64,000 nucleotides of DNA, from assembly GCF_963921235.1 (NCBI RefSeq), contig NC_086097.1, forward strand, positions 76,758,001-76,822,000. The letters run 5' to 3'. Both the position numbers and the translations under genes were made by a program. This document shows positions 9,610 to 28,524 of this stretch, piece after piece. The number at the start of each line of letters is the position of its first letter. The stretch's first letter is position 1. The DNA comes from Mobula hypostoma (Eukaryota). The notes beneath the pieces are model-generated. The model was given only the letters and a program-made list of their open reading frames with translations. It did no database searches and had not been told where the DNA came from.

Positions 9610-10405
9610 TTAAATTGACTTCTTACATCCTTCACATACATGAGAAGTAAAAAAATCTTTACGTTACATCTCCGTCTGAATGTGCAATGTGCAATTTATA
9701 GTAATTTGTAATAAATAGTATGGACAGCAGAACAGTCAATATAGCATAGAAATACAATTGTGTCAGTGTGAATTAATCAGTCTGATAGCCTGGTGGAAGA
9801 AGCTCTCCCGGAACCTGTTGGTCCTGGCTATTATGCTGCAGTACCGTTTCCCGGATGCTAGCAGCTGGAAGAGTATGTAGTTGGGGTGACTTGGGTCTCC
9901 AATGATCTTTCGGGCCCTTTTTACACACCTGTCACTGTAAGTATCCTGAATAGTGGGAATTTCACACCCACAGATGTGCTGGGCTGTCCGCACCACTCTC
10001 TGCAGAGTCCTATGATAAAGAGAAGTACAGTTTCCTTACCAGGCAGTGATACAGCCAGACAGGATGTTCTCAATTGTGCCCCTGTAAAAGTCCTTAAGAT
10101 TTGGGGATTCATGCCAAACTTCTTCAACCATCTGGGGTGAAAAAGGCGCTGTTGTGCTGTTTTCACCACACAGCCAGTATGTACAGACCACCAGGTCCAC
10201 GGTGATGTGTATACCGAGTAACTGAAAGCTATTCTTCTTCTCAACCCCAGATCCATTGATGCAATAGAGGTCAGCCTGTCTCCATTCCTCCTGTAGTGTA
10301 AACCAGCTCCTTTGTTTTTGCGACATTGAGGGAGAGGTTGTTTCCTTGACACCACTGTGTCAGGGTGATGACTTCTTCTCTGTAGGTTGCCTCGTTATTA
10401 TTTGT
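9610..10405 (-). mobile_element. Rex1/Babar LINE 3' fragment
   Basis: ORF pieces FYRGTIENILSGCITAW and ARKIIGDPSHP...LLASGKRY...FFHQAIRLIN. Confidence 0.8.
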
Positions 10406-10466
10406 TGTGATAGTTCATGTTTATTATTTTTAAATGACATTGCAATCAATTACTTCTTAAATTCAG

Positions 10467-10571
10467 ATTGTTTTACCTTCACACCTTGAGAAAGTCCAGA
10501 ACAAGCTAGCTGAAAACATTCATGAACTTTGGGCGACAAACAAAATTGAACTTGGTTGGACATATGGGAAG
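10467..10571 (+). CDS. RYR3: RYR exon 5 in window (105 bp; RyR repeat 1)
   Basis: ttcag|ATT...AAG|gtaagg; [35 protein letters not shown]. Not in ORF track. Confidence 0.95.
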
Positions 10572-11399
10572 GTAAGGAAGTGACGCGACTGGGATAACTT
10601 GATGCATTAATCCTCCGACGAGATATCTGTCAGAATGATATGTTGCTGGATAGTAAAGGAATTAAGGAATATGGGGACGATGCTGGAAAATGGTGCTGAA
10701 GTAGAAGAACAAATAATAATTTTATTGAATTCCATTAGCCAGAAGGCTTTCTCTTACTTTTGTGTCCCATGTTGAATGTTCTAAATCATCCCTTTCCCTT
10801 CCCATAGTATCTAACAGTATTTATGATTAACTTTACTATTGCTTAAAATAAATAAATCAATTATTAGCTGCTGGGGAAATACAGTATCCCAAAATGTTTT
10901 CCTGGCCAACACAAGTAACAGAGGATGCTACCAATGTAATATTAGTGAGCTTTCTCAATCACAGGGACTTCACATGATCTGTTAATATAGTGAGTTAACT
11001 GCTTACTGTGTATGCCTGAGTTGCTGTCAGTGAAGTATATTGTAAACAATATGGAGAAATTGGCTTTTGAGAAGGTAGATTGCCAAAGGCATGTTTGTTT
11101 TTTTCTCTCTCTCTCTCTCTGGCACTACTTTCAGGAAAAAAAAAGGTGTTGTGAAAAGTTACTTTCAAAGTCAGTTTTAATGAAAATGCTGGAAATGTTT
11201 AGTAACTGACCCTGCAGCCAGAATTGAAGATTTTCACTATAAACTAGAGCAGAGGTGCTGCCTCACAACCCCTATGACTCTAGTTTCAGTGAACCATGTA
11301 GTTGTATCCAAGATTCCACTGTTATACAACACTTCCCAGGGCATTGCCATTTGCTCTGAAATTCCCACCTGGATTTGACATTGAAACATGCGTCATTTG

Positions 11400-11660
11400 C
11401 ATCAGTTCAAATCAGCAAGGATTATGCTGCGTTGCTTGTAGGCGTTGTCACGCTTCCAGCACCAACATAGCATGCTAACCCTCTCTAACCTTAAACCGTA
11501 TGCCTTTGAAATGTGGGAAGAAACCAGAGCATCCGGAGGAAATCCACGCGGTTTATAGGGGGAAACGTACAAACTCCTTACAGTGGTGGGAATCAAACCC
11601 CAATCTTACAGCTGACTGCTGTAAAGTGTTTCACTAGCTGCTACTTTACCATGTTGCCAA
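11400..11660 (-). mobile_element. V-SINE / HE1-like SINE (further copies ~13095-13350 +, ~15495-15710 +, ~45600-45860 +, ~55260-55500 -)
   Basis: V-domain-like gaagaaaccagagcatccggaggaaatccacgcg...acgtacaaactcc. Confidence 0.7.
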
Positions 11661-11664
11661 AATT

Positions 11665-12720
11665 GTTGACATGGATGACAAATAACGATGGCCTCAGTAC
11701 CAACCTCTAGTCAGAAGCAGACCATTAGTCATGGGCCTCCACTCTCTTCACTCCAGTCCTTATTTATCATATTACAACCTTCACATTTCCTCACCACAAT
11801 TGCAACATTTCAGCCTAGCTCCTGCCTCACATTTCCCATATTCAAGTTCCCCAGTGCATCTTCCATATCTTTGTTTTCTCCTTCAGACTGCCGCAATATG
11901 CCCGAATTTCTGACATTTAAAGCATCTTAAAGGTGGTGGTATATATATTCTGACCTCATAACACGTATACCCTAAGTAAACTTTAGTCGGCAATCTCTCT
12001 TCATCAAAGTTGATCATAACCGATAAACTATCACACTTTTTCCCATTTCTTGTAACTTTCAAACATTTGGCCTCAATAATTTTTGCTCCTTTTATGTTCT
12101 GTTTAATCTCATCCATAGTAACTTTTGTTGGCATTCCAAAATAACTCCTCTAGTCCACTTCCTATTGTTGGGTATTGAGCATTGTGCTTTTTTGCCATCT
12201 ATTTTATTTAATCTAATCACTTTGCCTTGTTGAGCACTATCCCAACAAATCACTAATTGCGATCCATTTAGCAAAGTCTTTGCTCTTTTGACTTCGCCTA
12301 TAAGTTTGTTGATTATCTTCGTCAAATGAATCAGGTTCCATTCACCAAAAGACACTACATCTTCGCACAGTGTTATAATTGCTTTAATCTCATCTTCTTT
12401 CCGTTGTTTTGCTATCCTGTTTTATTTGTCTCCTGACTCCTGAGAGTTTGACATCTCATACCTCTGTTTCCTTTCCTCACTCTCTTCACTCCATTCCTCC
12501 ATCTCAAACTCACTTTCACTATCCGTCGACCTGTTCATCCTACAGGACATTTTCTTCATCATCTCAGCAGTTGCAACCTCCATGCTCTTTTCCAACTCCA
12601 CATTTCTGTCCTAACCACCAGCCAGCCACTCAACTCAACCTCCCAGCCTGGCCCAGTTCAGCACAGCAGTTCGACTCACTCAGCCCACCAGTTCTGGCAC
12701 ATTCTTCCACAGCCCCTTTG
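11665..12720 (-). mobile_element. I/Nimb-like LINE ORF1 (gag-like, zinc knuckles), frameshifted
   Basis: YIPPPLRCFKCQKFGHIAAV*, then degenerate GRCTGE.EYGKC and KCCNCGE knuckles. Confidence 0.7.
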
Positions 12721-14449
12721 GGGTTTGTTCCCAACAACCTACCTCAATCAATCTTTGAAAGCTCCTGAATACATTTAATTTCAGCACCATCTAAGTACTT
12801 AACAGTATTGTAGTGCTAATTTATGGTAAGAAAGTTAAAATCACCTACTATGGCAACTCAATTATTTTTGCAACTCTCCACAATCTTCTCGAATTCCTGT
12901 TGACTATTAGGGAACCTTTAGTTTCAGCTCAAAACCAATGTGATCGACCCCTTCTTATTTCTCTTTTCTATCCTTAAAGCCTCATTAGATGATCCTACAG
13001 TAATTTTATCTCTGTCTACTGTCTACTGTTCCTTTAATCAAACATGCATCTCTCCCTCCTCTCTTTCCTTTACCTCTATCCCACCTGGTGTTGTCAGTGT
13101 AGAGTTTGCACTTTCTCCCTGTGACCACATAGGTGCTCTAGTTCCAACCTATTGTACATCCTCTAGACATGCTGATTGGTCAGTTAATTGACCAGTGTAA
13201 ACTCAGTCGAGTGAGATGGATGGTAGAATTTGGAGAGAGTTGCCGGGAATGTGGGGAGAATAAACGGAGATTGGCGTTGACTTGTGTTTGATGGTCTGTG
13301 TGGACTCTATACGCTGAAAGTCCTGTTTCTCTGCTTTACAATTCCATGACTGTGATATCTGCAATGGTGTATTCTGTCTCAAAATTATTTTGTAGTCTAA
13401 TTTCTAACTGGGAAAGAGAAAACAAAAAGCTAATTTCTTTCCTGCTGTTTAAAAAAAGAACAAATCTGGGTTTAAAATTAATTCAATTCATCAGGGCCCA
13501 TACATTTAGCAGCAATAGAAGAACACATCAATTAAAGCAACATAATCTACCTCCTATCATGTTGCATTAAATGACAACGTATTGTTTACTAGCCTTTAAG
13601 TGATAGTAAAAATAGGTGGACATTAAATATCATTGGCATATCATACCCAAGTCCAAAGTAACAGAGGTCAGCTACACCACAGCCATTTTATTTTATTTTC
13701 TAATCTAATATATGCAGTATTATTTCTGTCTGAAACTCAACCATAGCAAGATTAAGTATAAAGTAAGGCCTGTTCATTGAAATTGGAAAGGGGCTTGCTC
13801 TTGATCTATCCCAGCCATGAAGTTTCTAATGAAGCATACTCTTGTGAAAACCTTGTGGAGGAGTTTTATAATTGATGTGAAAAGCAGTCTGGTAATTCAT
13901 TAATGCCAGAGGTTACAATTTGTGCATGACGCATTGGGGATTGAACCGATGTCGGAACTGATCCCCGTTTCATCACTCTGAACCATCTCATTTGTGGTAT
14001 TTTAATGAAAATTAAATATTTTAATTACTCTTTTATATTTCATGGTAGCACTCACATGTAATAACATTGCCAAGTATACACAGTTATAAAAAAATAAATT
14101 ATTGGCAGGGAAATATTTAAGGTTGGAAGCTACCCAGATAGAATATGAAGTGTTGTTCCTCCAACCTGAGCTTTGCCTCATGGTGGTAGCAGACATGTTG
14201 GTATGGGAATGTTCAGTCGAACTGAAGTAGGGGGCCACTGTGAGATCCTGCCTGACACTTATTGTTGTTTGTGTCCAAGTACATCAGCTTCAGGTGATGG
14301 CAAACACAGAACTAATTTTAAAAATTATCCACACCACTCAACCGTTGCCTTTGTGAGCATGATATCTCACTAGCTATCTATTTTTGATGTAAAGTTGTTG
14401 TACTACTTGCATGACTAGATTCAAACAAAATCTTCACAAAAATAGCATT

Positions 14450-15392
14450 AAGATGTGCAGCATCTATGTAAAAGAGTAAACAGTCAATGTTTCAGGCTAA
14501 GACCCTTCATTGGGACTGGAGAAAAACCATGAGAAGTCAGAGTAAGAAGGTGGGGGAGGGGAGGAAGAAATACAAGGTAGTAGGTGATAGGTGAAACTGG
14601 AAGGGAGGAGGGGTGAAATAAAGAGATGGCAAGTCGTTTGGTGAAAGAGATAAAGGGCTGGAGAAGGGGGAATCTGATACAGGAAGACAGAAAGCCATGG
14701 AGGAAATGAAAGGTGGAGGAGCTCCAGAGGGAGGTGATAGGTAGGTAGGGAGATGAGGTGAGAGAGAGAAGTGGGAATGTGGAACAGTGAAGGAGGAGGC
14801 TGGCACTACCGGAAGTTCAATAAATCAATGTTCATGCCATCAGGTTGGAGGCTACCCAAATAGAATATAAGGTGTTGCTCCTCCAACCTGAGTGTGACCT
14901 CATTGCAGCCGTAGAGGAGGTCATGGGCTGACATGTCGGAATGGGAATGGGAAGTAGAATTAAAATGAGTGGCCACTGGGAGATCCTGCTTTTTCTGGCG
15001 AGTGAAGCATAGGCTAAGTGGTCTCTAGATCTATGTTGGGTCTCACTGATATACAAGAGGCCATACCAGGAGCACTGGATACAGTAGATGACCCAACAGA
15101 CACACAGGTGAAGTGTCGCCTCATTTGGAAGGACTGTCTGGAGCTTGAAACAAATGGACAAGGGAGTCGCATAGAGAGATTCTTGTGGAAAGCAGAAAGT
15201 TGGGGGTGGGGTGGGAATGATGTGCTTCATTGTGGGGTCCCATTGGAAACTTTTTCTCCAGTCCTGATGAAGGGTCTCGGCCCAAAACGTCGACTCTTTA
15301 CTCTTTTCCATAGATGCTGCCTGGCCTGCTGAGTTCCTCCAGCATTTTATGTGTGTTGCTTGGATTTCCAGCATCTGCAGATTTTCTCTTGT
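14450..15392 (-). mobile_element. Penelope-like element 3' part (GIY-YIG remnant) with inverted terminal pseudo-LTR (~15250-15392)
   Basis: VIYCIQCSWYGLLYISETQHRSRDHL is a decayed GIY-YIG endonuclease; hammerhead remnants at both ends. Confidence 0.8.
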
Positions 15393-15991
15393 TAATAAAT
15401 TAACTAATCCCATTTTGAACTTTTTTTTACCTAATCTTCCCCTTAACCGATTCTAACTTTACCCTTGAACTAAGGGACAGCATGCTAACGTATTAGTTAG
15501 TATAACTCTATTACAGCACCAGTGATGCAGCTTCAGTTCCACTGCTGTCTGTAAGGAGTTTGTATCTTCTCCCTGTGACCGCTTCCTCTGAGTGTTCCAG
15601 TCTCCCCCTACCTTCCAAAGATGTATGGTTTGGTAGGTTAATTGTAATTGGGCAGTGGGGACTTGCTGGGCCAGAAGGGGCTGGTACTGTGCTGAGTCTC
15701 GAAATAAAATATCCCTTCTTTTCCTTACTTGATACCTGGCCTATACTGGCTTTGTTAGTGGTTGCACTATACATTGTGTGCATTTATCAGAATATGATTA
15801 CTTAAGAAAGTACAAAGTTGATTTATCTATACATTCACATCCCAGATCCATTCACTCCATTGCTGCAAGCTTCTCACATTTCCAGCAACTTGCCAATCAA
15901 GAAAAATGTGACCATTATCAAAGAAGGATTCATTGGAACAACTAATAATTCATTAATTTATTCACCAATGACTGCCTTGTTTCTTCTTCAG

Positions 15992-16095
15992 GTACGTGAT
16001 GACAATAAGAGACAGCACCCTTGTTTGGTGGATTTTGATAAGCTACCCGAACAAGAGAGAAACTATAATTTACAAATGTCCCTTGAAACCTTAAA
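15992..16095 (+). CDS. RYR3: RYR exon 6 in window (104 bp)
   Basis: ttcag|GTA...TTAAA|gtaagt; [34 protein letters not shown](K). Confidence 0.95.
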
Positions 16096-16214
16096 GTAAG
16101 TTTAAAATGTTGTTCAATATGTAAGATAAAAAGCTATTAATTACTGTATATCAATTTGCCTTGTGTTTGCATTTAGTTGATGAATTTACAGTGTTTATTG
16201 CAATGCCTTTACAG

Positions 16215-16298
16215 GACCCTCCTGGCTTTAGGTTGTCATGTTGTTCATATTAAACCAAAAGCAGAAGAATATTTACAAAGAATGAAACTTCCCAAAAA
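16215..16298 (+). CDS. RYR3: RYR exon 7 in window (84 bp), after a 119-bp intron
   Basis: tacag|G...AAAAA|gtaagt; TLLALGCHVVHIKPKAEEYLQRMKLPK(N). Confidence 0.93.
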
Positions 16299-17786
16299 GT
16301 AAGTTTATTACAGTCATGAGAATGTTACCGAGAGGTGTTTTGTTTTAAAGAGACTAGCACAGGTTTTTCAACATCTACTTTTTATTTTTCATAAAACTAT
16401 TCATGTTTACCATCTGGACTAAAAAATGCATGTGAATTGTGCTAGCTTTCAGGATCACAGAAGTTTTGTTAAGGATTTCAAGTTAATCTGAATGAATGTT
16501 TTTGCAAAATATGACTAGGTGGAGATGTGTAAGACAAGTTGCAGGTTCTAATTATTTTTGAAGTCACGTGATCATAATTGTTTTCTGTTGAGTTTATAGT
16601 CTTTGCTGAGAAGTAAATAGATCTAGAGGTGCAATGCATTGAAGCTAATGTAGTCTTTTCCCATTGTATTTTCATGGAAATATCAGCTTTGGGTTATATA
16701 GCATGTATGCTTCTTTATCTCCACCTCAAATACCACGGAGGTTGAAATTCCTGAGCTCCAGCTGGGGTTGGGGATGCTGGGAGTTACTAGAAAACAAGAT
16801 CACTGTAACCTTAGTCCTGGAATATTGGACAGAGCCTAATTGCATATTGCTCCTTAAACTGTCAGGCTTTGCATCCCAGTCAAAAAGGAGCTATCAAAGT
16901 TGTCAGCTCTCTTCCTCTTTCCCTTCGTCCTCAATGTAGCAGGTTGCCTTTCTCTGAGTGGTCTCTGCTCATTTTCCCAGCCGTGCTGTATTCCAGAAAT
17001 AGTCTACTTGTGCACCCTTATCTAGCATCTACTGGTTTATGCAAAAACATTGCTTGAAATCAGCAAACCATTCATGAGCGTGTCACACCACTTGCTGTCA
17101 GCTTTTGCAAGTTAAAAATCATAGTGGAAAGCTAACAATAGAAATCATCCCATCAGCTGGAGCAAGTCATGCATTAGTTAGCATTGGTGAGGATTCTGTT
17201 GCTGTTACAATGTGTGTTTAGTATTGTAAAGTTAAAATTATCAGGTGGTTCAATGGAATCCACAGTGGCAGTGCTGGGATCAGATCAGTACCACAGACTA
17301 AGGATGCCTTGATCTGCTTGCTCTGCAATCACCCAGGCAACAATGTTCACTGTGTGTACACTGCTGTCTTTACTAACATAGCCTCCAGTGAAGTTTGCTG
17401 TGGAGGTGTGCACGTGTGTGGACATTTGCCACGGATGACACTTTGGTTTCTGGAATGCCTGAGTAATGATCACTGGTAAGCCCAATTCCAGGCACAGAAA
17501 TTTTTCAGAGAATATTCTTTTTTAGATTTCCTTTAAGTCCAGAAGGGTCTGGTGAGTAACACTGAATCAGGGCCATTGAGGTGCTCTGGCAGTAGGACAC
17601 TCCTGTCTCAGCCCAGCAAGTGACCAAATATTCTGCACTTTGGGACAGAGTCAGTGCTACTGTGAAAATGTGTACATGAGTCTGGTTTGTGCCCTGGTAT
17701 TGTATCCTGTAAGAATTTCAGAGTCATTGTCTCCTTGAGATGATTACTTTTGGGAGAGATTACTCTGAAATGATATTGATGGTGAG

Positions 17787-18470
17787 ATACATCCTAGGAT
17801 GCGCTGGGACACATCATCAGTGATGTACCCTGGGGGTCATTAGGTGTTTCAGGTCTTCCAACGTCAGACACCCTCGCCCAGGTGACCCAACCAAGGTTGA
17901 TCAGGCCCTGGCTTGAGTCCCAGCAGTATTGGTCCACAGGTGGCATCTCTTGATCCATAGTTATCTGGAGGCTCGCTCAGCACCCTCTGTAACGGTCCTG
18001 ATGGCTCTTTTCTTTGCAGCCCCCAAAATGCCAGGGAGAGAGCAGGTTCTGCAGAATGAGTAGACAGAAAAACCTCTACACCTTACCTCCATAGGCTCAC
18101 TTTGTACCCTCCACCCCTGTCTCTGGCACTGCCCTACCAGCTTCTGGTATTTGGCTTTCTTACATTCAATCACCTCCTCAATCTGGTCTTCCCAAGGCGC
18201 TGTCAGTTCTACCATGACCACCTGCTCGTTGAACTGATGATGATGGAATGAAGTCAGGGAACTTCAATGCTTGCCAAGATTGACTTTCAATTGCCAGTCA
18301 GATGCTGTGGCGAGCAAGCCTTCTGGTGGTGTGGGTTGAAGTGGTGTTTGGTCTCCAGCTTTGACAAAGGCAGTGGGCTTTCTTGGTTGGAGGAGGTGCC
18401 CCCTGTTGTTAATGGCTGAGGAGATACTTTCTGCCACTGCCTTCAGCTCCTGGTCATGGTGTCCTCCAAG
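17787..18470 (-). mobile_element. HERO/R2-superfamily non-LTR retrotransposon 3' fragment (restriction-like endonuclease plus 3' UTR)
   Basis: HDQELKAVAESI...FVKAGD...LLATASDWQLKV, then MVELTAPWEDQIEEVIECKKAKYQKLV...GWRVQSEPMEVRCRGF (ELTxPWE / KxxKY motifs). Confidence 0.8.
17805..17873 (-). ncRNA. Candidate non-circularly permuted hammerhead ribozyme
   Basis: GGGUGUC^UGACGU-UGGAA-GACCU-GAAACACCU-AAUGACCCCCAGGGU-ACAUCA-CUGAUGA-U-GUGUC-CCA; all three stems can pair. Confidence 0.55.
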
Positions 18471-18524
18471 CCACCTTATACTATATTGAATTGAAAAGCG
18501 GGCTCCATTTCATTATGCACCACA

Positions 18525-21500
18525 GTAAGACAGTACAGTATGGATACGGGCTCTTTATCCCCATGAATCCATGTCAAATATGATACCACCCACCTAGTCC
18601 AAATCGACCCATATCCCTCTGAACCCTGCCTCTGTGACTACCTAACTAAATGCTTCTTAAATTTGTATCTTCCTCAGTCATTCCTCTGGCAGCTCATTCC
18701 GTGCATTCACCATCCTCTGTGTGGAAAATCTTGCCCCTCAAATCCCTTTCAAACTTTTCCCTCTCATCCTGAAATGATGCCCCTAGATTTGGGCTCACCT
18801 ACCATGGATAAAAGAATGTTTTCATCTGCCTTTTCCATGCCCCTGGATGATTTTATAAACCTCTATAACATCACCCCCCACTCTGCTGTGCTCCAAGCAA
18901 TGCAGATCTGGCTTGGACAACCTCTCCCTATAATTCAGACCCTCTAATCCAGGTAGCATTCTCGTAAATCTTTTCTACACTCATTAAAATTTAACCACAT
19001 ATTTGTATAACAGGAAGAATAAAACTGCACACGGTTCTCTAAGTAGGGCCTCACCAATGATTTGTACAACCACAATATGCAGTAATATCCCAACTCTTCT
19101 CTGTGCCCTGATTGTTGAAAGCCAGCATGCTAAACACCTTTTTTAACCACTTTATCTATGTGATGCTACTTTCAATGAATTCTGCACCTGTACTTCCAAG
19201 GTCTCGTTATTCCATTACATTCCCTAGTGCCCTACCATTCACAGTATAATTCTGCCTATGGTTTGACTTCCCAAAATGCATTGTCTCCCACTTATAGAGT
19301 TATAGAATCATAGAAAAATACAGTACAGAAACATCAGACCATCTACTCCATGCCAAACCATTTAAATGGCCGACTCCTAATGACCTGCACCGGACCATAG
19401 CCCTCCATATCCCTACCATCTATGTACCTATCCAAACTTATTTTAGACTTTGAAATCGAGCTTGCGCACACCACCTGTGCTGGCAGCTCGTTTCACACTT
19501 TCACAACCCTCTGAGTGAAGAAGTTTCCCTTTGTGTTCCTCTTAATCTTTTCACCTTTCACCCTTAACCCATGACCTCCCACCCAACCTCAGTGGAAATA
19601 CCTGCTCGCATTTATCATTAATGAATTCCATTTGCCACTCCTCGGCTCACTTCCTTAACTAAGCAAGATCCCGCTTTAATCTGCAATAACCTTCTTCACA
19701 AACAACACCTCTAACTTCATGTCATCCACAAACTTACTGATCAAGCCTTGTGCACCTGCATTCAAATAATTTATATAAGTAATGAATAACAAGGATCCCA
19801 AAATCATCCGCTATAGCACACCACCAGTTGTAGGCTTCTGTTCCAACAAACAACCTTCAACCACCATCTGCTGCTTTCTATCTCCAAGTCAGTTTTGAAT
19901 CCACCTTACTAGCTCTCCCTGGACACCATGGGATCTAACCCTCTAGACAAGCCTACCATGTTGAAAGCCTTGCTGAAATTAAATAGACAGCATCCACAGC
20001 CTTACCCACATCTACTTCTTTGGTTACTTATCCATAATTCTCTATAAGATTTATCAGACACAACTTTCCACACACAAAGCCATGCTGATTTCTCCCCATC
20101 AGACCCTGGTTATCCTAATTCCCTTAGAATTCCTTCCAGTAACTTCCCCTCTACTGACGTCAGACTAGCAATTCTGTTGCTTGTTTTTGGTACCCTTCTT
20201 AAACAGTGGAACAACATTAGCTACCTTCCAGTGTTTGAGAACTTCACCAGTAATAATGATGAAGCAAGTATAGAGGGCAATGGAAAATAGAAAAATGAAG
20301 GGCTATGGGTAACCCTAGGTAATTTCTAGAGTAAGTATATGTTTGGCACAGCATTGTGGGCCGAAAGGCCTGTATTGTGCTGTAGGTTTTCTATGTTTCT
20401 ACGCTCTATAACTCCACAAGGGTCTCTACAATTTCCTCTCTTGCCTCTAGTAAGGATGCAGCTGCTCAAGTCCAGAGAATGTATCCACTTTAATGCAGTG
20501 CAAGGCTGAAAATATCTCCCTGGGAATGTGATTGTTCTTCAAAACATCTCTACCTGTTTCCCTTATCCCTTGAGCGACCACGCTTTTCTCCTCAGTAAAC
20601 AGCAAGGAGAAATATTTGTTATAAGTCCCACCCATCTCCAGCAGCTCAAGATATAGGCAGCACTGCTGATCTTAAGGGAATCTACTCTTCGCTTTGTCAC
20701 TCTTTTACTCTTAATAAACTCGTGTTCTAGAACCGCCTGGGATTTTCCTTAAAACTACCTGCCAGATCTTCTCTTTGCCGTCTCTTTTTCCTCTTAAGAG
20801 TATTCTTTATTTTCATAGTTATCAAGGCATTCACTCATCCCAACCTCCTGCACCCAATGTATGCTTACTTCTTTTTCTTGATCAGAGCCTCAGTGTCTCA
20901 TTTCAGCCAAGGTTCCCTAGACCTGCCAGGTTTACCCTTCCACCTAACAGGAAAAGCTATTCCTGGACTCTCGATATCACACTCGTAAAAGCCCCCAATT
21001 GTCATTCGTTCCTTTCACTTCAAACAGGCTCACCCAATTGATCTTGCTAGATGCTGACTAATTTCACCAAAATAAGCCCTGCTCCAGTTTAGTACTCTAA
21101 GCTTTGAACCTGTCCTACCATTTTCCATCACTATCTTAAAACTAATAGAATTGTGGTCACAAGAGCAAAAGTGCTCCCTGACTGTCTCATTTGTTATCTG
21201 GCCTGGCCTGTCTTATTGCTGTTTATTTACAGTATATTTGCATTTGCCCAGTTTGTTGTTCATCAGTTCTGTTTACAGTTACTGTTCCATAGATTTCCTA
21301 AGTATGCCCACAGGAAAAAAAATCTCAGAGTTGTATGTGGTGACGTATATGCATCTGATAATAAATTTTATTTGAACTTTGAACTTTTTGTTCCTTAAGA
21401 GAAGGTCCATCACTGCAGCCTCCAGTGTACGGCCCTCTGTATATTGACTCAGGAAACTTCCCCAAATACATTTCAGAGATTGTACCCCATCCTGATCCCT

Positions 21501-22680
21501 AACACTTTGGATAGTCCAGTCAAAACTGGGAAAATTATAATCTCCCATTAATACAACCCTATTATTGTTGCAACTATGAACAACTTTTCTTTACACCTGC
21601 AGGTTAAATTCCCACTGTCTATAATACAGACAAACTAGAGTGACTATCCCCTTGTTTCTAAGTTCTACCCATATGATCTCACTGATATGATATGATCCCA
21701 TATGATATAATCCTCAAGAATGTCATGTCTAGGTACTGCTATTACTTCCTCCCTTATCAAAAAGGAAACACCCACTTCTCGGTTACCTGTACCTCTGTCA
21801 TGCCTGTAGCATCTGTATCCTGGAATACTGAGTTGCCAGCCCTGCCCTTCTCTTAGCCATGCTTACATTATGTCTATAACATCAGTCATTTGAGCTAATC
21901 CGAGCTCTGAGTTCATCTGCCGTACCTGTTCAACCCCATGTATTGAAATAAATGCAGTTTGACTGTATATTCCTTTCCCTGCTTTCACTGTTCACTGGCT
22001 ATCCTGATCACTAAACTTGCTTTCACTGGGTACTGCTTTATCTCATGATGTGTCCCTGTCCCTTTCTATGCTCTCTCCCACCAACTAGTTTAAATCCTCC
22101 CATGCAGACTAAAAAAATTCCCTACCAAGGTATTGGTCACTCTCTGGTTCAGTTGTAAGCTGTCCCTTTTGTACAGGTCGCTGCTACCCCAGAAGAAATG
22201 CTAATGGTCATAGAACCTGAATCACCACTCCCTGCACTGTTTTTTGAGCTGTGAATTCATCTGGCTTACATTTCCATTTCTGACCTCACTAGCTTGTGGC
22301 ATTGAATAGAATCCAGAGATCACTATCTTTGAAGTATTGCTTCTTAACTTCTTTATCTAACTCCCTAAACTCATCCTGCAGAACCTCATCCCTTGATATC
22401 TGCCTATGTCATCTGTACGAAGACATATTGCCCTCCCATTCGAAAACTTTCTGCAGTCACTCAAAGATATCCTTAATCCTAGCACCCAGGGAACAACACT
22501 CTATCATGTCATCCCTTCTGCATCCACAGAATATCCTGTCTGTCCTCACTCACTATCAAGCCTCCTATCACTATTACTGTGAGCCACAGACCTGGTCTCA
22601 ATGCCAGAGACTGAGCTATGCTATTAGCCTCTGAAAGAACAACCCCATCAACAATATTCAGAAAGGTAGTTTTGGATACC
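18525..22680 (-). mobile_element. Long degraded CR1 LINE (ORF1 esterase, endonuclease, RT, 3' end) with nested CR1 tails (~19290-19615, ~20270-20405) and a Rex tail (~21195-21387)
   Basis: MGDYNFPSFDW...FLSQYTEGRT...MDLLL (endonuclease); NKYFSLLFTEE; esterase motif near 22100-22340. Confidence 0.8.
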
Positions 22681-23173
22681 AAAGATGTGTCTTTTGAACG
22701 AAATCTTAGACTTAAACTGCCTTGGACTGAATCTGCCTGAGCTTAAAGGAATCTTTATGGAACAGCAAGTATATCTTTTCCACTTTGGGTAGGAGTTTGT
22801 GGACTTTTGACTGATTAAGATCAATTAGTTAGCTTCTGCTTGCTTATGATGTTGTTCATAGTAAGTATTCCTTGATGCTTAAAACTAGAGGAAACAGCAA
22901 AGGATTTGTATTGTCTTTTTAAAAAATAAATCAACATGTAATTAATTTGGAACTGTAATTACTCCAACATGTTTCAACTGTAAAATAGAGAGATTAACAA
23001 GTTTCCACTTTTCTTTTGACAATGAGTATGTTTACATTTATGGAAAATTTGACTTTTAAACTTCTATGTTTTTCTTTTAGAGACTAATTGATTCAACGCT
23101 GATGATTTTAAAGTATTGTATTTTGCATTTCAACCTGTGATCTTATTCATCATTTATTTTAATTGCATTTTAG

Positions 23174-23333
23174 TTACATGATGTCAAACGGCTACAAGCC
23201 TGCCCCACTGGACCTTTCGGATGTCAAACTACACACAGCCCAGGAAGTATTGGTTGACAAGCTGGCAGAAAATGCACATAATGTCTGGGCTAAAGACAGA
23301 ATCAGGCAAGGGTGGACTTACGGCATCCAACAG
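23174..23333 (+). CDS. RYR3: RYR exon 8 in window (160 bp; RyR repeat 2)
   Basis: tttag|T...CAG|gtgact; [19 protein letters not shown]...[24 protein letters not shown]. Confidence 0.95.
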
Positions 23334-24396
23334 GTGACTGAGATTTGTAATAATTGGAATTATGGACATATGTTCCATGGCCACATAATAGCAAACTATG
23401 CTATAAAATCATTTTGAAAAGCAGACAACTTTATTTCACATCAATTACTTATTCCCCTTGTGGAATATGTTTATGCTGGCAAATGCAAGGCGTAAAGCTG
23501 AACTGAGAACAGATAATACAGGGAGTGGTTTGGACCTAATATTCATCCTGTGCTTTTACTTTAAATTCTGGACAATATTTTAAACTTCTTTAAAGTATTC
23601 TGATATGTTGCAGGTTAGTTATATTGTGTATTTAGTGTATATTAGTGTAATACAATAAAGCTTCTTTGTTGTAACTTGTATTGCCTGAAAATGTTTTAAA
23701 TGGCCATCTTGATGTTCAGCTAAGTTTACAGTTGATTAGCCCACCTGAAGTTCAGCTAACCTTTCATTTCATCAGCCTTTTGGAAGCTCTCCTGACCTTG
23801 CATTTGATTCAAAGCGAAAAACAAGAGCTGGAGAAATTCAGCAGGTCATTCAGCATCTGTGGAGGAAAATAGACAGTCAGCATTCATTTCGGATGGAGAC
23901 CTTTCATTTGGATTGAAAGAGTAGAGAAAGATAGCAGTTTTGGTCTTGGCTAATTATTGTCACAGTTGTAACAAGATACAATGAAAAGATTATCTTACAT
24001 TTTGTTTATACAGATCAAAATCATTACACAGTGCATTAAGGCAAAACAACAACAATACAGAATAAAATGTAAAAGCTACAGAGAAAGTATAGTGCTGGTA
24101 AACAATAAAGTGCAAGAACATAACGAGGTAGATTCTGAGGTCAGGGGTTCATTTAATTGTACAAGAGGTCCGTTTAAAAGTCTGCTAACAGTGGAATAGT
24201 AGCTGTCCTTGAGCCTGATGGTACATGCTTTCAGGCTTTCAAAAGTGTTTCCAGCACTTTCTGTTTTTATTGACTTCAGTCATTAGCTTTGTGTGAACAC
24301 ATGCATTCTCGTTGAATTTAAACTGCAAATGCAGGGCAAACACCTAAAATTAGAACCCAGAGCATATATGATGACATTAACTGTCACGTTCTACAG

Positions 24397-24544
24397 GATA
24401 TCAAGAACAAAAGAAACCCTCGACTGGTGCCGTATAGTCTTCTTGATGAACGAACTAAAAAATCAAATAGAGACAGTTTACGTGAAGCAATTCGCACTTT
24501 AATTGGTTATGGTTACAACATTGAGCCGTCCGACCAGGAAGTTG
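24397..24544 (+). CDS. RYR3: RYR exon 9 in window (148 bp)
   Basis: tacag|GAT...GTTG|gtgagt; [49 protein letters not shown]. Confidence 0.95.
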
Positions 24545-24747
24545 GTGAGTACAGCAATTACTAATCAATTCATTCATTTGCTAAGATCAAATTAAAATAC
24601 TGTGAAAGCATAAGGTATGACAGTCACGGAAAAAACAGCTAATAAAGTCGCTCCATTGATGTATGTGGTAAGGCATGCCTGGAGAAGGTAATTGTTGTCT
24701 CTGTTGGATAAAGTCTATCGAAATCAATACACAATGCATTGAGATAG

Positions 24748-25721
24748 ATGCAAACACGAGGAAATCTGCAGATGCTGGAATTTCAAGCAACACACATACA
24801 AGTTGCTGGTGAACGCAGCAGGCCAGGCAGCATCTATAGGAAGAAATACAGTCGACGTTTCGGGCTGAGACCCTTCGTCAGGACTAACTGAAAGAAGAGC
24901 TAGTAAGAGATTTGAAAGTGGGAGGGGGAGGGGGAGATCCAAAATGATAGGAGAAGACAGGAGGGGGAGGGATGGAGCCAAGAGCTGGACAGTTGATTGG
25001 CAAAATAACGGATGAGGTACGAGGGGGAGGTGGGGCATTAGCAGAAGTTTGAGAAGTCAATGTTCATACCATCAGGTTGGAGGCTACCCAGACGGAATAT
25101 AAGGTGTTGTTCCTCCAATCCTGTCTGCCAGAGTAAGCAGGATCTCCCAGTGGCCACACATTTTAATTCCACATCCCATTCCCGTTCTGATATGTCTATC
25201 CATGGCCTCCTCTACTGTAAAGATGAAGCCACATGATGAAAGATGAAAGGTTGGAGGAACAACACCTTATATTCCATCTGAGTAGCCTCCAACCTGATGG
25301 CATGAACGTTGACTTCTCAAACTTCCGCTAATGCCCCACCTCCCCCTCGTACCCCATCCGTTATTTCTTTATATACACACTTTCTTTTTCTCTCTCTCTC
25401 CTTCATCTCCCTCTGTCCCTCTCACTATATCCCTTGCCCGACCTCTGGGCTTCCCCCCTCCCCCTTTTCTTTCTCCCTAGGCCTCCTGTCCCATGATCCT
25501 CTCATCTCTTTTGCCAATCATCTGTCCAGCCCTTGGCTCCATCTCTCCCCCTCCTGTCTTCTCCTATCATTTCGGATCTCCCCCTCCCACTTTCAAATCT
25601 CTTACGAGCTCTTCTTTCAGTTAGTCCTGACAAAAGGTCTCGGCTGGAAACATTGACTCTACCTCTTCCTAGGGATGCTGCCTGGCCTGCTGCGTTCACC
25701 AGCAACTCTTATGTATGTTGC
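24748..25721. mobile_element. Young Penelope-like insertion with inverted pseudo-LTRs
   Basis: TSD tgcattgagatag (24735-24747) / tgcattgaaatag (25719-25731); arms are reverse complements. Confidence 0.8.
24850..24885 (-). ncRNA. Minimal type I hammerhead ribozyme motif (PLE-type), intact core
   Basis: Minus strand AGUC-CUGACGA-AGGGUCUCAGCCC-GAAA-CGUC-GACU. Confidence 0.75.
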
Positions 25722-25789
25722 ATTGAAATAGGACAAGGTAAAAGAAGAACAATGCGGAACACCATGTAAAAGCTACAGAGAAAGTTCCC

Positions 25790-26370
25790 TGGGATGTTGT
25801 GTTGAAGTTGTCTCAGACGCTGGTGAGGCCTAATTTGGAGTATCGTGTGCAGATTTGCTCACCTACCTATAGGAAAGATGTAAATAAGATTGGAAGAGTG
25901 CTGAGAAAATTTACAAGGATGTTGTCAGGACTGAAGGACGTGAGTTATAGGGAAAGATTGAATAAGGTTGGGACTTCATTCCTTGGAACATAGAAGATTG
26001 AATGGAGATTTGACAGAGGTATACAACATTATGAGGGGTATAGATAGGGCAAATACAAACAGGCTTCTTCCACTGAGGTTGGGTAGAGATCATGGGTTAA
26101 GGGTGAAAGGTGAAATGTTTAAGGGGAACATGAGGGGAAACTTCTTCTCTCAGAGTTTGTGAGAGTGTGGAACGAGCCGCCAGCACAGGTGTTGCATGTA
26201 AGCTCGATTTCAATGTTTAGGAGAAGTTTGGATAGGTACATGGATGCCTGGGGTACTGAGGGCTGTGGTCTGGGTGTAGGTTGATGAAACTAAGAAGGTT
26301 AATGATTCAGTATGGACTAGATGGGCTGAAGGACCTGTTTCTGTGCTGTGGTGTTTATTAATTATATGAC
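25790..26370 (+). mobile_element. CR1 LINE 3' fragment
   Basis: LVRPNLEYRVQICSPTYRKD; LHSLEHRRLNGDLTEVYNIMRG. Confidence 0.85.
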
Positions 26371-26859
26371 TATGAAATCCATTTCTCTTGATGTTCCACT
26401 TTGCTCATTGTTTGGCAGAAGTCATGGTCAGTTGTTTCTTTGGGTAATTTTTTCTGTACCTGCAGCAGCAAATTTATACAGGAAGTTTGCCAGCCAACAT
26501 GCACAACGGATTTTTCATTTTTCTCAAGTAAGTAGATGAATGGAAACATACAGAATAACATTCATTTCCAGAAAACAATCAAGTTAAATGTTATTTTGGG
26601 AGGTGCGAGTTGTAACTTCTTTTCTGTTTTATATTTGTTTTGATGTTTTTTTTTACTTATGATGCATTTTCTGCGGCTTTTTATTCAAGCTAAATATAAA
26701 TAGCACATAATAACCATTATTCTGACAAGCCATGATGAAATGTACCATCTTAACTGTTGACATTGCAATTAAAACATCAGAAATGACCGAGAAAATTACT
26801 ATCACTGATTTACTTGATGATAGTGTAAGACCTTGAACTAGTGCTGCATCTATAAAGAT

Positions 26860-27510
26860 ATTTTACAGATCCTGCTGGAAATCCAGAGCAACCCAAAATG
26901 CTGAAGGAACTCAGCAAATCAGGTAGCATCCATGGAAATGAATAAACAGTCGACGGTTCCGGCTGAGACTTTGCATTGGGACTAGAAAGGAAGGGAAAGA
27001 AGCCAGAATAAGAAAGTGGGGGAGAGGAACGAAGACAAGCTAGAAGGTGACAGGTGAAGCCAGGTGGTGTTGTGGGAAGGGGAATGAAATAAGAAGCCAG
27101 ATGATAGGTGGAAAAGGTAAAGGACTGGAGAAGAAGGAATCCTACAGGAGAGGAGAGTAGACCATGGGAGAAAGGGAAGGAGGAGGGGCACCAGGAGGTG
27201 GTGATAGGCATTTGAGGAGAAGAGAAGATGTAGGAGGGGGGCTAAAGTGGGGAATTGAAGGAGAGGGAAGCAGGAGGTGGACAAGTTACTGGAATTTGGA
27301 GAAATTGATGTTTATGCCTTCAGGTTGGATGCTACCCAGATGGAATATGAAGTGTTGTTACTCCAACACCTGATGAGAGTGGCCTCATCGTGGCAGTAGA
27401 TGAGGCCATGGGCTGACATGTCAGAATGCGAATGGGGATTGGGATTAAAATGATTGGCTACTGGGAAATCCTGCCTTTAGAAGACTGAGTGTAGATGTTC
27501 AACAAACGAA
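26860..27510 (-). mobile_element. Penelope-like pseudo-LTR fragment (similar remnants at ~4655-4760, 23810-23940, 36520-36670, 44845-45170, 48375-48645)
   Basis: Same terminal motif and purine-rich body as 14450 and 24750. Confidence 0.75.
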
Positions 27511-28524
27511 CTTTCTCACACTCATTCTACCTCATAAATTAAAATGTGAATTAGAGTGCCCATTGTTTATTCAATTATTATTACTAAACAAAGGTGTCGG
27601 ACTATTGAGTTTATGTACTATAGTTGTTATACAGAGCACAAACTCAACCTGGATTGCAAAAATCTGGCACTGCTTACTTATCTATGAATTCTCCAAAGGC
27701 CTATGTGACATGCTGCTCTCATAGTTGTGAAGTTGCTCGTACAGTCCATCACTGCTTCTCTGCCGGTCATACCGTTATGAATGTTATTGCAATAACCAGG
27801 CAGCTTTCCAAATCATAATATGTACAACTTGGCTGATACTTCACTGTCACTGAACTTTATTCCAATGCAACAATGAATTATAATCAATAAAATATAGTGT
27901 CAGTCATTATCAATTCTCAGTTCTATTTCTTTGAAGTTATGAGGATCAGAATCAGTTCTAGAATGTTAAACATACCAGCAATAAAGAGATTCTGATTTCA
28001 CTAACAGATTTTATATTGTTTTATGATCATATTCCATGTATTCTTAAGAGGAGCTAACCAATTGGAAAGCCTGTCATCTTGATTGTTTGTGCTTGCTGTT
28101 GTACTACTTCTGATGTAAGGTAGCTAGATGTAAGTTACTGCTCAGATCTTGGTGACTTGATCTTCCCACTCAGAGATGCTCCTGGTAGTCTCCCTGTGCT
28201 CAGACTTGCATGGTCCAGATTGGATGGGCAGTCATGTGGGACTGAAATAACCCAGCCTCAAGTGGCACAAACTTGGCACTGGCAGCATAGTAAGAATGTG
28301 CTACTCTTGAAACTCCTTGAGAGTCTTTGACAATTAGATATGTGTTGGCCCTGTCTCTACCAGCTACCTGAATCACAATGAGTAAGATATAAGTAAAGAT
28401 AAATAAAATTGAAGCTGTTTTCTTTTCATTTGTAATTATAAACAAATAATGTCTGCAATACTTGTAAATAAAAATATTAAATGAATACAAATATTATTAT
28501 GGCAATTACAGAATGGTGGGCTGG

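What the first reader, a model, noticed from the sequence alone, without database searches (positions are those of the whole stretch)
17805..17873. Non-circularly permuted (pseudoknotted) hammerhead-like ribozyme in the 3' UTR of a HERO-like retrotransposon
Seen: about 90 nt downstream of the RLE ORF stop, the element's sense (minus) strand carries all hammerhead core parts in scrambled order. (a) GGGUGU-C^UGACGU, 17873-17861, putative cleavage after C17867. (b) GACCU-GAA-ACACCU, 17855-17842. (c) ACAUCA-CUGAUGA-U-GUGUCCCA, 17826-17805. Stem III GGGUGU/ACACCU forms 6 bp; stem I UGACGU/ACAUCA forms 5 of 6; stem II GUGUC-CCA pairs with UGG-(AA)-GACCU with one mismatch. The b-c linker folds its own ACCC/GGGU hairpin. 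Established: types I-III hammerheads are circular permutations of order a-c-b, so order a-b-c needs a pseudoknot or trans/dimer assembly. R2-type elements are known mainly for 5' HDV-like ribozymes. Non-circular hammerhead permutations have been reported in nature, but I cannot confirm whether this family was among them. Inference: a self-cleaving or structural 3' module of HERO elements. This copy may be impaired by a C.A mismatch in stem I and U before GAAA.
Basis: partly seen in the sequence, partly recalled or inferred. Interest (0 to 1): 0.8.

Follow-up and report, generated by a model that had tools for sequence, protein, structure and literature searches.

The report
Rewired hammerhead ribozyme in LINE tail
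This stretch is a worn, cut-short copy of the tail of a jumping gene whose relatives in many animals keep an RNA fold holding every core letter of the self-cutting hammerhead ribozyme in an unusual wiring, so the tail is predicted to cut the element's own RNA, which nobody has yet tested.

Summary
They lie in the last 150 nt of an old, 5'-truncated copy (about 17777-18460) of an RT + restriction-like-endonuclease LINE.

The motif is not chance. A bare S-G-C pattern hits this genome 2515 times, against 231 for a reversed control. The hits fall in at least five tail lineages. In these, CUGANGA, GAAA and U-H stay fixed while stems I and III change sequence and keep pairing.

Among 80 metagenome loci encoding relatives of the endonuclease domain, 47 carry the motif downstream on the sense strand, and none on the other strand. 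In 42 distinct motifs position 17 is never G, while position 7 takes all four bases.

The strand after CUGAUGA pairs with a far-upstream strand. Stem II is made with a strand just upstream of the cut-site block. The linker pairs upstream to form a kink-turn-like extension of stem III.

So this is a split-core relative of the type-SGC hammerhead. Full-length heads are almost always preceded by tail sequence. Cleavage is untested, and this copy is decayed. Earlier notes of this scan reported the same motif on other DNA.

The parts
17777..18460 (-). Old, 5'-truncated copy (about 690 bp) of LINE family A: end of the ORF plus the 3' UTR. The 3' end is shared with all other copies.
   Evidence: at least 2614 candidates; 40 scored at 85-88% identity; 30 of 30 fetched copies lose homology at the same 3' point (..CATCA, window 17777). 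Longer copies stop matching the window at about 18460.
17961..17963 (-). Stop codon (TAA) of the ORF fragment that carries the restriction-like-endonuclease-type C-terminal domain.
   Evidence: a relative of the domain is read.
17914..17924 (-). alpha: upstream strand that pairs with the strand directly after CUGAUGA. Pairs 10 of 11 here, 11 of 11 in the family majority.
17889..17913 (-). Hairpin Ph, with loop CCUGAUCAA that holds the palindrome UGAUCA.
17884..17888 (-). beta (GGGUC): the 5' strand of stem II, displaced upstream of the cut-site block.
17877..17883 (-). gamma (ACCUGGG): pairs with the segment just 5' of the stem I 3' strand.
17874..17876 (-). CGA: the unbulged strand of the kink-turn-like bend (N-GA).
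17868..17873 (-). Stem III 5' strand GGGUGU, ending in U16.1.
17867..17867 (-). C17; predicted cleavage 3' of this base.
   Evidence: By analogy with hammerheads. Position 17 is A, C or U, and never G, in 42 of 42 distinct motifs.
17861..17866 (-). Stem I 5' strand UGACGU (family majority UGAUGU).
17856..17860 (-). Linker UGGAA between stem I and stem II (2-6 nt in the five lineages).
17851..17855 (-). beta' (GACCU; majority GACCC): the 3' strand of stem II, ending at position 11.1.
17848..17850 (-). G12 A13 A14.
   Evidence: Invariant in alignments A1 and A3.
17842..17847 (-). Stem III 3' strand ACACCU, starting with A15.1.
17836..17841 (-). AAU-GA-C: the bulged strand of the kink-turn-like bend.
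17827..17835 (-). gamma' (CCCCAGGGU; majority CCCAGGU).
17821..17826 (-). Stem I 3' strand ACAUCA.
17814..17820 (-). CUGAUGA (C3 to A9).
17803..17813 (-). alpha' (UGUGUCCCAGC): starts directly after A9 and pairs with alpha.
17777..17802 (-). Last 26 nt of the element, down to the shared 3' end where copying into DNA must start.

Best explanation
The window holds a decayed copy of a conserved 3'-UTR RNA domain of RT + RLE (HERO-type) LINEs that carries a complete hammerhead core and is predicted to cut the element's RNA after position 17.

Shown: the domain runs, 5' to 3', as alpha - hairpin - beta - gamma - N-GA - stem III 5' strand - H17 - stem I 5' strand - short linker - beta' - GAAA - stem III 3' strand - NNN-GA-N - gamma' - stem I 3' strand - CUGANGA - alpha'. 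Stems I and III, beta/beta', gamma/gamma' and alpha/alpha' all change sequence between lineages and keep pairing. The core letters stay fixed.

Inferred:
- beta/beta' is stem II.
- gamma ties the far ends of stems I and II together and joins stem III through a kink-turn-like bend.
- alpha, the hairpin and beta form a four-way junction that closes a break in the chain between A9 and stem II.
- In active copies the domain likely trims read-through or head-to-tail transcripts to unit length.
- Such RNA would need rejoining (a circle), or incomplete cutting, to serve as template. This would fit the finding that nearly every full-length head is preceded by tail sequence.
For: (1) Letters and coordinates are confirmed.

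(2) Enrichment: 2515 pattern hits against 231 for the control in this genome.

(3) Five lineages in the same genome (A to E) plus an A-like one with CUGAAGA. Within a family, stem I pairs 6 of 6 in all five and alpha pairs 11/11, 11/11, 13/13, 4/5 and 10/10. Cross-family pairings mostly score 1-5 of 6 and 0-7 of 10-11.

(4) Formal count on 12 natural copies: 92.2% of cells paired against 68.5% in shuffles (0 of 500 shuffles reach it). The covariation score is 0.699 against 0.274, and slid partners give 30-46%. All 6 stem I pairs change on both sides.

(5) Other organisms. Of 80 metagenome loci encoding relatives of the C-terminal domain (33-50% identity, one 74% partial match), 47 have the motif on the sense strand and 0 on the antisense strand. 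Shuffles gave 1 hit in 1600 locus-shuffles. Of the 57 loci with at least 250 nt downstream, 40 have the motif; most of the other 17 show mutated versions.

(6) The free positions are the hammerhead's free positions. In 42 distinct motifs N7 is U 23, C 11, A 5, G 3. N17 is A 16, C 15, U 11, G 0, although G was allowed in the scan. U16.1-A15.1 is kept in 46 of 46.

(7) Helices that were not part of the descriptor: a beta complement of 5/5 in 37 of 42 (shuffled-target control 11 of 42), gamma 6/6 in 30 of 42 (control 7), alpha 8/8 in 26 of 40 (control 6).

(8) Nested folding of natural copies recovers alpha in all six sequences folded, and the hairpin, beta or III+gamma in several. The z-scores run from -1.3 to -4.1.

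(9) Heads preceded by tail: B 27 of 30 by BLAST plus 2 short ones read by eye, C 20 of 21, A 14 of 15, A-like 7 of 8. Two units also lie in tandem on one metagenome contig (L298 and L310).
Against: No cleavage assay exists.

Rfam's hammerhead models give no hit even at E up to 10. That is expected for a rewired order, but it means no curated model supports the call.

The chain leaves the core after A9 instead of running into stem II. I found no precedent for this, and it touches the A9/G10.1 region of the core.

A cut at position 17 would separate the ORF from the 89-158 nt that carry the priming end. The element would therefore need rejoining or partial cutting.

Genomic 5' ends do not pile up at the predicted cut. 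Only 3 run-on copies start there (L118, L130, L244). In family C, boundary patterns gave 2 at the site, 2 at -2, 0 at -4, 2 matches from one duplicated locus at -7, and 1 at -10, out of 534 copies.

In families A and B the stem I 3' strand can instead pair locally with UGAUGU or UGAUC, which hides part of the core.

The window copy itself has a stem I mismatch, an alpha mismatch, U at 11.1 and extra bases in gamma'.
Confidence: 0.7

Rival explanations
1. The domain is a conserved, non-catalytic 3'-UTR scaffold that the element's reverse transcriptase binds to start copying at the 3' end, as R2 proteins bind their 3' UTR. Under this reading the likeness to a hammerhead core would be convergent or vestigial.
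For: The domain sits 26-64 nt from the shared 3' end in lineages A-C (and about 100 nt in D), where copying must begin. Cutting there looks harmful to the element. There is no pile-up of 5' ends at the predicted cut. An R2 paper's abstract, seen in a search listing only, speaks of a pseudoknotted RNA bound by the protein.
Against: A protein-binding junction has no reason to copy all 13 fixed hammerhead letters. It also has no reason to leave free exactly N7, and H17 without G, in 42 of 42 motifs. Nor would it need to keep U16.1-A15.1 in 46 of 46. Binding and cutting are not exclusive.
Confidence: 0.2
2. The motif folds: a plain type-SGC hammerhead whose stem II is made by GUGUC(CCA) after CUGAUGA-U and (UGG-AA-)GACCU before GAAA, with a local linker hairpin.
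For: In families A and B the first bases after CUGAUGA-U can pair weakly with the strand before GAAA. In the published type-SGC alignments stem II is indeed made that way (supplement passage).
Against: The pairing has a U.C mismatch and an extra U even in the majority of family A. It is absent in lineages C, D and E. The same segments have better partners that covary: alpha/alpha' with 10-13 bp in A, B, C and E, beta/beta', and gamma/gamma'.
Confidence: 0.05
3. Chance likeness: a CUGAUGA that is part of a small palindrome, lying near a GAAA.
For: ACAUCA-CUGA-UGAUGU is a perfect local hairpin in this copy, and the minimum-energy fold uses it.
Against: The pattern is enriched tenfold over its control. 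It is conserved with covariation in five lineages of this genome and in 47 of 80 loci from other organisms, with 0 of 80 on the other strand.
Confidence: 0.01

Closest known systems
Type-SGC hammerhead ribozymes (HRIMA-1 and variants), Eckert, Friedrich, Weinberg and Weinberg 2023, PMC10085705. I read the abstract, sections 7, 13, 15 and 18, and supplement passages.
   Same: The block order is cut site - GAAA - CUGANGA. A short linker runs from stem I to the strand before GAAA. An extra helix ties the far ends of stems I and II, made by the segment just 5' of the stem I 3' strand and the segment just 3' of the stem II 5' strand. The structure has two pseudoknots.
   Different: There, stem II's 5' strand follows CUGANGA directly (structure line seen). 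Here that strand (beta), with its tie-helix strand (gamma), lies upstream of the cut-site block. The chain is closed to stem III through a kink-turn-like bend. The strand after A9 forms a separate long helix with a far-upstream strand. In effect this is a circular permutation of the SGC topology that splits their 'Block C', which the authors assumed could not be interrupted. Their examples come from metatranscriptomes and metagenomes, whereas these sit in the 3' UTR of an autonomous animal LINE.
Classical hammerhead ribozymes, types I to III.
   Same: The core letters, H17, the free N7, the U16.1-A15.1 pair, and stems I and III flanking the core.
   Different: The order is not a circular permutation of the three strands. 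There is no Rfam hit. Stem II is not continuous with A9.
Hammerheads of Penelope-like elements and animal non-LTR retrozymes (Cervera and de la Pena 2020, PMC7229834, listing and abstract start only; Li, Clavereau and Pollet 2026 preprint, abstract only).
   Same: A hammerhead in a repeated terminal part of a retroelement, with head-to-tail or partial tandem genomic copies. For retrozymes, circular RNA and rolling-circle copying have been proposed.
   Different: Those carry classical type I motifs in Penelope-like or non-autonomous elements. Here the host is an RT + RLE LINE and the wiring is new.
HDV-like ribozymes at the 5' end of R2 and other LINEs (recalled; not read here).
   Same: A self-cutting RNA in an RLE-type LINE that would free unit-length RNA from a longer transcript.
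   Different: A different ribozyme class, placed at the 5' end. Here the cut would lie 89-158 nt before the 3' end.

Membership tests
Hammerhead ribozyme | Core letters C3 U4 G5 A6 N7 G8 A9, G12 A13 A14, and A15.1 paired with U16.1. | tested here: met
   Present in the window and in the majorities of five lineages. Invariant columns appear in alignments A1 and A3. In the metagenome scan these letters were required by the descriptor, so only the G000 lineages test them freely.
Hammerhead ribozyme | Position 17 is any base but G; position 7 is free. | tested here: met
   N17 is A 16, C 15, U 11, G 0 in 42 distinct motifs, with G allowed in the scan. N7 is U 23, C 11, A 5, G 3.
Hammerhead ribozyme | Stems I and III flank the core and covary. 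| tested here: met
   On A3, 99.2% of cells are paired against 64.4% in shuffles, and 7 of 8 pairs change on both sides. The A3 rows were chosen by a descriptor that demands pairing; the control for that is 0 of 80 hits on the antisense strand.
Hammerhead ribozyme | Stem II is continuous with A9 on one strand and G12 on the other. | tested here: not met
   The strand before G12 pairs with beta, upstream of the cut-site block. The strand after A9 pairs with alpha, far upstream.
Hammerhead ribozyme | Match to curated covariance models (Rfam). | tested here: not met
   No hammerhead family hit at E up to 10 in window 10000-30000.
Hammerhead ribozyme | Site-specific self-cleavage after position 17. 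| not testable with these tools
   This needs a bench assay. The genomic footprints were inconclusive.
Type-SGC hammerhead (Eckert et al. 2023) | Blocks in the order S, G, C. | tested here: met
Type-SGC hammerhead (Eckert et al. 2023) | Block C is uninterrupted: stem I 3' strand, CUGANGA, then stem II 5' strand. | tested here: not met
   compared with the structure line of their alignment.
Type-SGC hammerhead (Eckert et al. 2023) | A short linker from stem I to stem II, and a helix tying the other sides of stems I and II. | tested here: met
   The linker is 2-6 nt, and gamma/gamma' takes the place of the tie helix.
HERO clade of RLE non-LTR retrotransposons | Reverse transcriptase plus a C-terminal restriction-like endonuclease; placement by RT phylogeny. 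| tested here: inconclusive
   Homologues of 1000-1150 aa carry RVT_1 and zf-RVT. An RVT_1 fragment in a family B unit scores 25.5 bits, below the cut-off of 29.6. The PD..E..K-like letters of the C-terminal domain were read by eye. There is no Pfam or PDB hit for that domain. No source names it HERO, and no RT tree was built.
Kink-turn | A three-base bulge followed by tandem G.A / A.G between two helices (consensus recalled, not from a call). | tested here: inconclusive
   All five lineages read N-GA on one strand and NNN-GA-N on the other, between stem III and gamma. GA lies 5' of stem III in 33 of 42 motifs and 3' of it in 36 of 42. No structural test was done.

The most novel reading that the evidence does not exclude
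An autonomous LINE clade found from molluscs to vertebrates replicates through a viroid-like step. A hammerhead of a previously undescribed split-core topology, clamped by a kink-turn and a four-way junction, cuts head-to-tail transcripts. The unit-length RNA is rejoined into a circle. The element's reverse transcriptase copies round that circle, leaving the partial head-to-tail copies seen in the genome. A palindromic hairpin loop (UGAUCA or UGGCCA) may pair two such RNAs.
Probability: 0.3. Interest if true: 0.9.

Novelty: new variant of a known kind. Interest (0 to 1): 0.8.

Why it matters
If the domain cuts, three things follow.

- It adds a hammerhead wiring that breaks an assumption used to list all possible permutations, namely that the CUGANGA block cannot be split. 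Searches built on that assumption have therefore missed thousands of copies in animal genomes.
- It would be the first hammerhead tied to an RLE-type LINE. Those elements are otherwise known for HDV-like ribozymes.
- It would offer a testable reason for the odd head-to-tail shape of these elements.

The fold is also a compact natural example of clamping stems I and II by covalent topology rather than by loop contacts. That may be of use in ribozyme design.

Tried and rejected
- **Rfam scan** of window 10000-30000 at E up to 10: three weak, unrelated hits and no ribozyme.
- **Pfam** on the window's two ORF fragments and on family A fragments: nothing.
- **PDB sequence search** with the C-terminal domain: one chance-level hit.
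- **A false lead.** I first took an RT in L032 for the element's own. It belongs to a different, young LINE (96% identity, at least 5526 candidates).
- **Public sequencing runs.** Twenty-four runs hold part of a family B tail, but all are kept as contigs and nearly all are only guessed to be RNA. Laying four of them gave repeat-like depth. It showed no usable starts, ends or joints at the predicted cut. This says nothing for or against cutting or circles.
- **Footprints of a cut in DNA.** Three run-on copies start at the predicted site (L118, L130, L244). Whole-genome boundary patterns in family C gave 2 at the site, against 2, 0, 2 matches from one duplicated locus, and 1 at -2, -4, -7 and -10. 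The result is inconclusive.
- **Alignment limits.** MAFFT alignments did not keep beta, gamma and alpha in register across lineages. The pair-counting tool was therefore used only for stems I, III and, in A1, beta. The other helices were tested by scripts with shuffled-target controls.
- **Covariance model.** None was built, because the seed alignments were not in register.
rejected by the comparison.
- **The search of earlier findings by sequence**: no look-alike found.

Full report
**Observation.** On the minus strand the window reads GGGUGU-C-UGACGU (17873-17861), GACCU-GAA-ACACCU (17855-17842) and ACAUCA-CUGAUGA-U-GUGUCCCA (17826-17805), exactly as reported. The ORF fragment upstream ends at TAA 17963-17961. 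Rfam gives no ribozyme hit here, even at E up to 10.

As a chance test I searched the whole 3.48-Gb genome for GTC N12-18 GAAAC N21-26 CTGATGA. There are 2515 matches, against 231 for the same pattern read backwards. The window's copy is among the listed matches. The control rate is about 0.004 per 64-kb window.

**What the copy is.** The 181 nt around the motif have at least 2614 candidate relatives in the genome. The 40 that were scored are 85-88% identical. Thirty fetched copies all lose homology at the same 3' point (window 17777) and start at different 5' points. This is the signature of a 5'-truncating LINE. The window copy runs from about 18460 to 17777.

The ORF end carries a PD..E..K-like C-terminal domain, which I read by eye. 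Pfam and PDB do not name it. Longer homologues of 1000-1150 aa, with RVT_1 and zf-RVT domains, occur in lancelets, a sea urchin, sturgeon, many teleosts and bivalves. One source calls one of them R2-like; none says HERO. A review-type passage lists HERO as one of five RLE clades. I did not build an RT tree, so the clade name stays untested.

**Other lineages.** The earlier notes of this scan gave three positions in the same contig. I fetched them and found a variant of family A with CUGAAGA, plus two young families: B at 97-98% identity and C at 95%, each with 1400 or more candidates. The pattern listing added D and E. I read majority lines for the tails only.

In all five lineages CUGAUGA, GAAA and U-H are fixed, while the stems differ:
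- Stem I is UGAUGU/ACAUCA, UUGAUC/GAUCAA, GUGGUU/AACCAC, GUGGGC/GCCCAC and CCGGGU/ACCCGG.
- Within a family, stem I pairs 6 of 6 every time. Across families it pairs 1-5 of 6.

On twelve natural copies the pair-counting tool gives 92.2% paired cells, against 68.5% in shuffles (0 of 500 shuffles reach it). The covariation score is 0.699 against 0.274, and slid partners give 30-46%.

- The strand directly after CUGAUGA pairs with a strand 80-100 nt upstream (alpha/alpha'). It pairs 11, 11, 13 and 10 bp in A, B, C and E, and 4 bp in D. The sequence is different in each lineage.
- The strand directly before GAAA pairs with a 5-7 nt strand (beta) just upstream of the cut-site block. The core-side pair is G-C in four of the five lineages, as in the usual 10.1-11.1 pair.
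- The 'linker hairpin' is one strand (gamma') of a helix. Its partner (gamma) lies between beta and stem III.
- Between stem III and gamma both strands read GA, with a three-base bulge on the 3' strand (GAU, GAA, UGU, AAA, GAA). From memory, that is the kink-turn pattern.

Read as a fold, stems I and II are held side by side between two three-way junctions. One is the catalytic core (I, II, III). The other is a distal junction (I, II, gamma). Stem III bends back to gamma. The chain enters and leaves through a four-way junction (core, alpha, hairpin, beta) with no spare bases in A, B, C and E.

Nested folding of natural copies recovers alpha in every case, and the hairpin, beta or III+gamma in several.

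**Other organisms.** I used a profile of the C-terminal domain to fetch 80 metagenome loci encoding relatives at 33-50% identity, plus one 74% partial match.

A descriptor asking only for CUGANGA, GAAA, U16.1, stem I at 5 of 6 or better, and stem III at 4 of 5 or better gave these counts:

| Test | Loci with the motif |
|---|---|
| Sense strand | 47 of 80 |
| Antisense strand | 0 of 80 |
| Shuffled loci | 1 of 1600 |

Of the 57 loci with at least 250 nt after the protein match, 40 have the motif. Most of the other 17 show versions with one or two core changes.

I then dropped identical motifs, one in-ORF hit in L266, and hits that were weak in both stems. Forty-two distinct motifs remain. N7 is U 23, C 11, A 5, G 3. 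N17 is A 16, C 15, U 11 and never G, although G was allowed.

The helices that were not in the descriptor are found far more often than with shuffled targets:

| Helix | Observed | Shuffled-target control |
|---|---|---|
| beta, 5/5 | 37 of 42 | 11 of 42 |
| gamma, 6/6 | 30 of 42 | 7 of 42 |
| alpha, 8/8 | 26 of 40 | 6 of 40 |

On 46 sequences, the part of stems I and III that MAFFT kept in register is 99.2% paired, against 64.4% in shuffles. Seven of 8 pairs change on both sides, and U16.1-A15.1 is invariant. These rows were selected for pairing, so the antisense and shuffle controls are the fair test.

**Genomic shape.** Tails are sometimes followed directly by the element's head: B 2 of 30 and C 3 of 30. 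The reverse holds almost always. Heads are directly preceded by tail sequence in:
- B: 27 of 30 by BLAST, plus 2 short ones read by eye
- C: 20 of 21, including one duplicated locus and the query itself
- A: 14 of 15
- the A-like subfamily: 7 of 8

The lengths of these upstream tails run from about 10 to more than 700 nt. Tandem units about 3.6-3.8 kb apart occur in this genome and on one metagenome contig. So the RNA that is copied nearly always has tail sequence 5' of the head.

Three sources could give this: a circular template, a read-through transcript of tandem copies, or end-to-end template jumping by the RT. The last is known for R2 enzymes (recalled). My data do not separate these.

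**Footprints of cutting.** The predicted cut lies 89 (A), 111 (B), 125 (C), 158 (D) and 92 (E) nt before the 3' end. Three run-on copies start exactly there. However, genome-wide boundary patterns in family C show no excess at the site over nearby positions. Public runs gave contigs only. Cutting in vivo is therefore neither shown nor excluded.

**Literature.** Eckert et al. 2023 define blocks S, G and C and describe types SGC, CSG and GCS, mainly from metatranscriptomes. Their structure line shows stem II's 5' strand directly after CUGAUGA, and a tie helix made by the segments before the stem I 3' strand and after the stem II 5' strand. The fold here has the same tie helix and the same short I-II linker. 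It differs in that beta and gamma are moved to the 5' side, so it is in effect a circular permutation of that topology that splits Block C.

Their main text and supplement hold no mention of kink-turns, Branchiostoma or Danio. 'Retrotransposon' and 'eukaryot' appear only in reference titles and one aside on an unrelated gene. Searches for hammerhead together with RLE LINEs, Hero, type-SGC, kink-turn or circular RNA found no paper describing this. About 1.7 million PMC articles and most subscription journals are outside that library.

**Verdict.** The window's own copy is dead. It is truncated and about 12-15% diverged, with a C.A mismatch in stem I, a mismatch in alpha, U at 11.1 and extra bases in gamma'.

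At the level of the element group, my probabilities are:
- about 0.9 that this is a selected RNA fold with a hammerhead core
- about 0.7 that active copies cut themselves after position 17
- about 0.3 that a circular RNA is the template

Earlier notes of this scan reached similar readings on other DNA. I used them as leads and re-derived the lineages, the helices, the kink-turn pattern and the head-to-tail counts myself.

Noticed in passing
window 17889-17913 (-); L262-L341: The hairpin between alpha and beta often has a palindromic loop. UGAUCA occurs in 13 and UGGCCA in 5 of 42 distinct metagenome motifs, where about 1 is expected by chance. It is also present in families A, C and E. A self-complementary loop could let two RNAs kiss.
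   Followed up: partly
L077-L106, 3' ends (family C): Several copies end in two or more units of (G)TAACAAG before the flank, as if copying started with slippage on a short repeat.
   Followed up: no
L032:2961-3566 (-): A reverse-transcriptase stretch beside a family A copy belongs to a different, very young LINE: 96% identity among the scored copies and at least 5526 candidates.
   Followed up: partly
window 18822-19142 (-): ORF fragments read ..RFTRMLPGLEGLNYRERLSK.. and ..GGDVIEVYKII... From memory, these look like the C-terminal part of a CR1/L2-type LINE lying next to the truncated copy.
   Followed up: no
window 17803-17826 (-): In families A and B the stem I 3' strand can also pair locally with UGAUGU or UGAUC inside and after the core, giving a 5-6 bp hairpin. 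This is a possible off-state and is not seen in C, D or E.
   Followed up: partly
L048:1623-1706: In contigs of two runs the word depth rises about five- to forty-fold over the last ~90 nt of the family B tail. That is not at the predicted cut, which lies 111 nt from the end. It may reflect many very short copies or a derived short element.
   Followed up: no
L113 and L114 (C18:87.25 Mb and 87.29 Mb, opposite strands): The same family C insertion, with the same flank, occurs twice about 41 kb apart in inverted orientation. This points to a segmental duplication.
   Followed up: no
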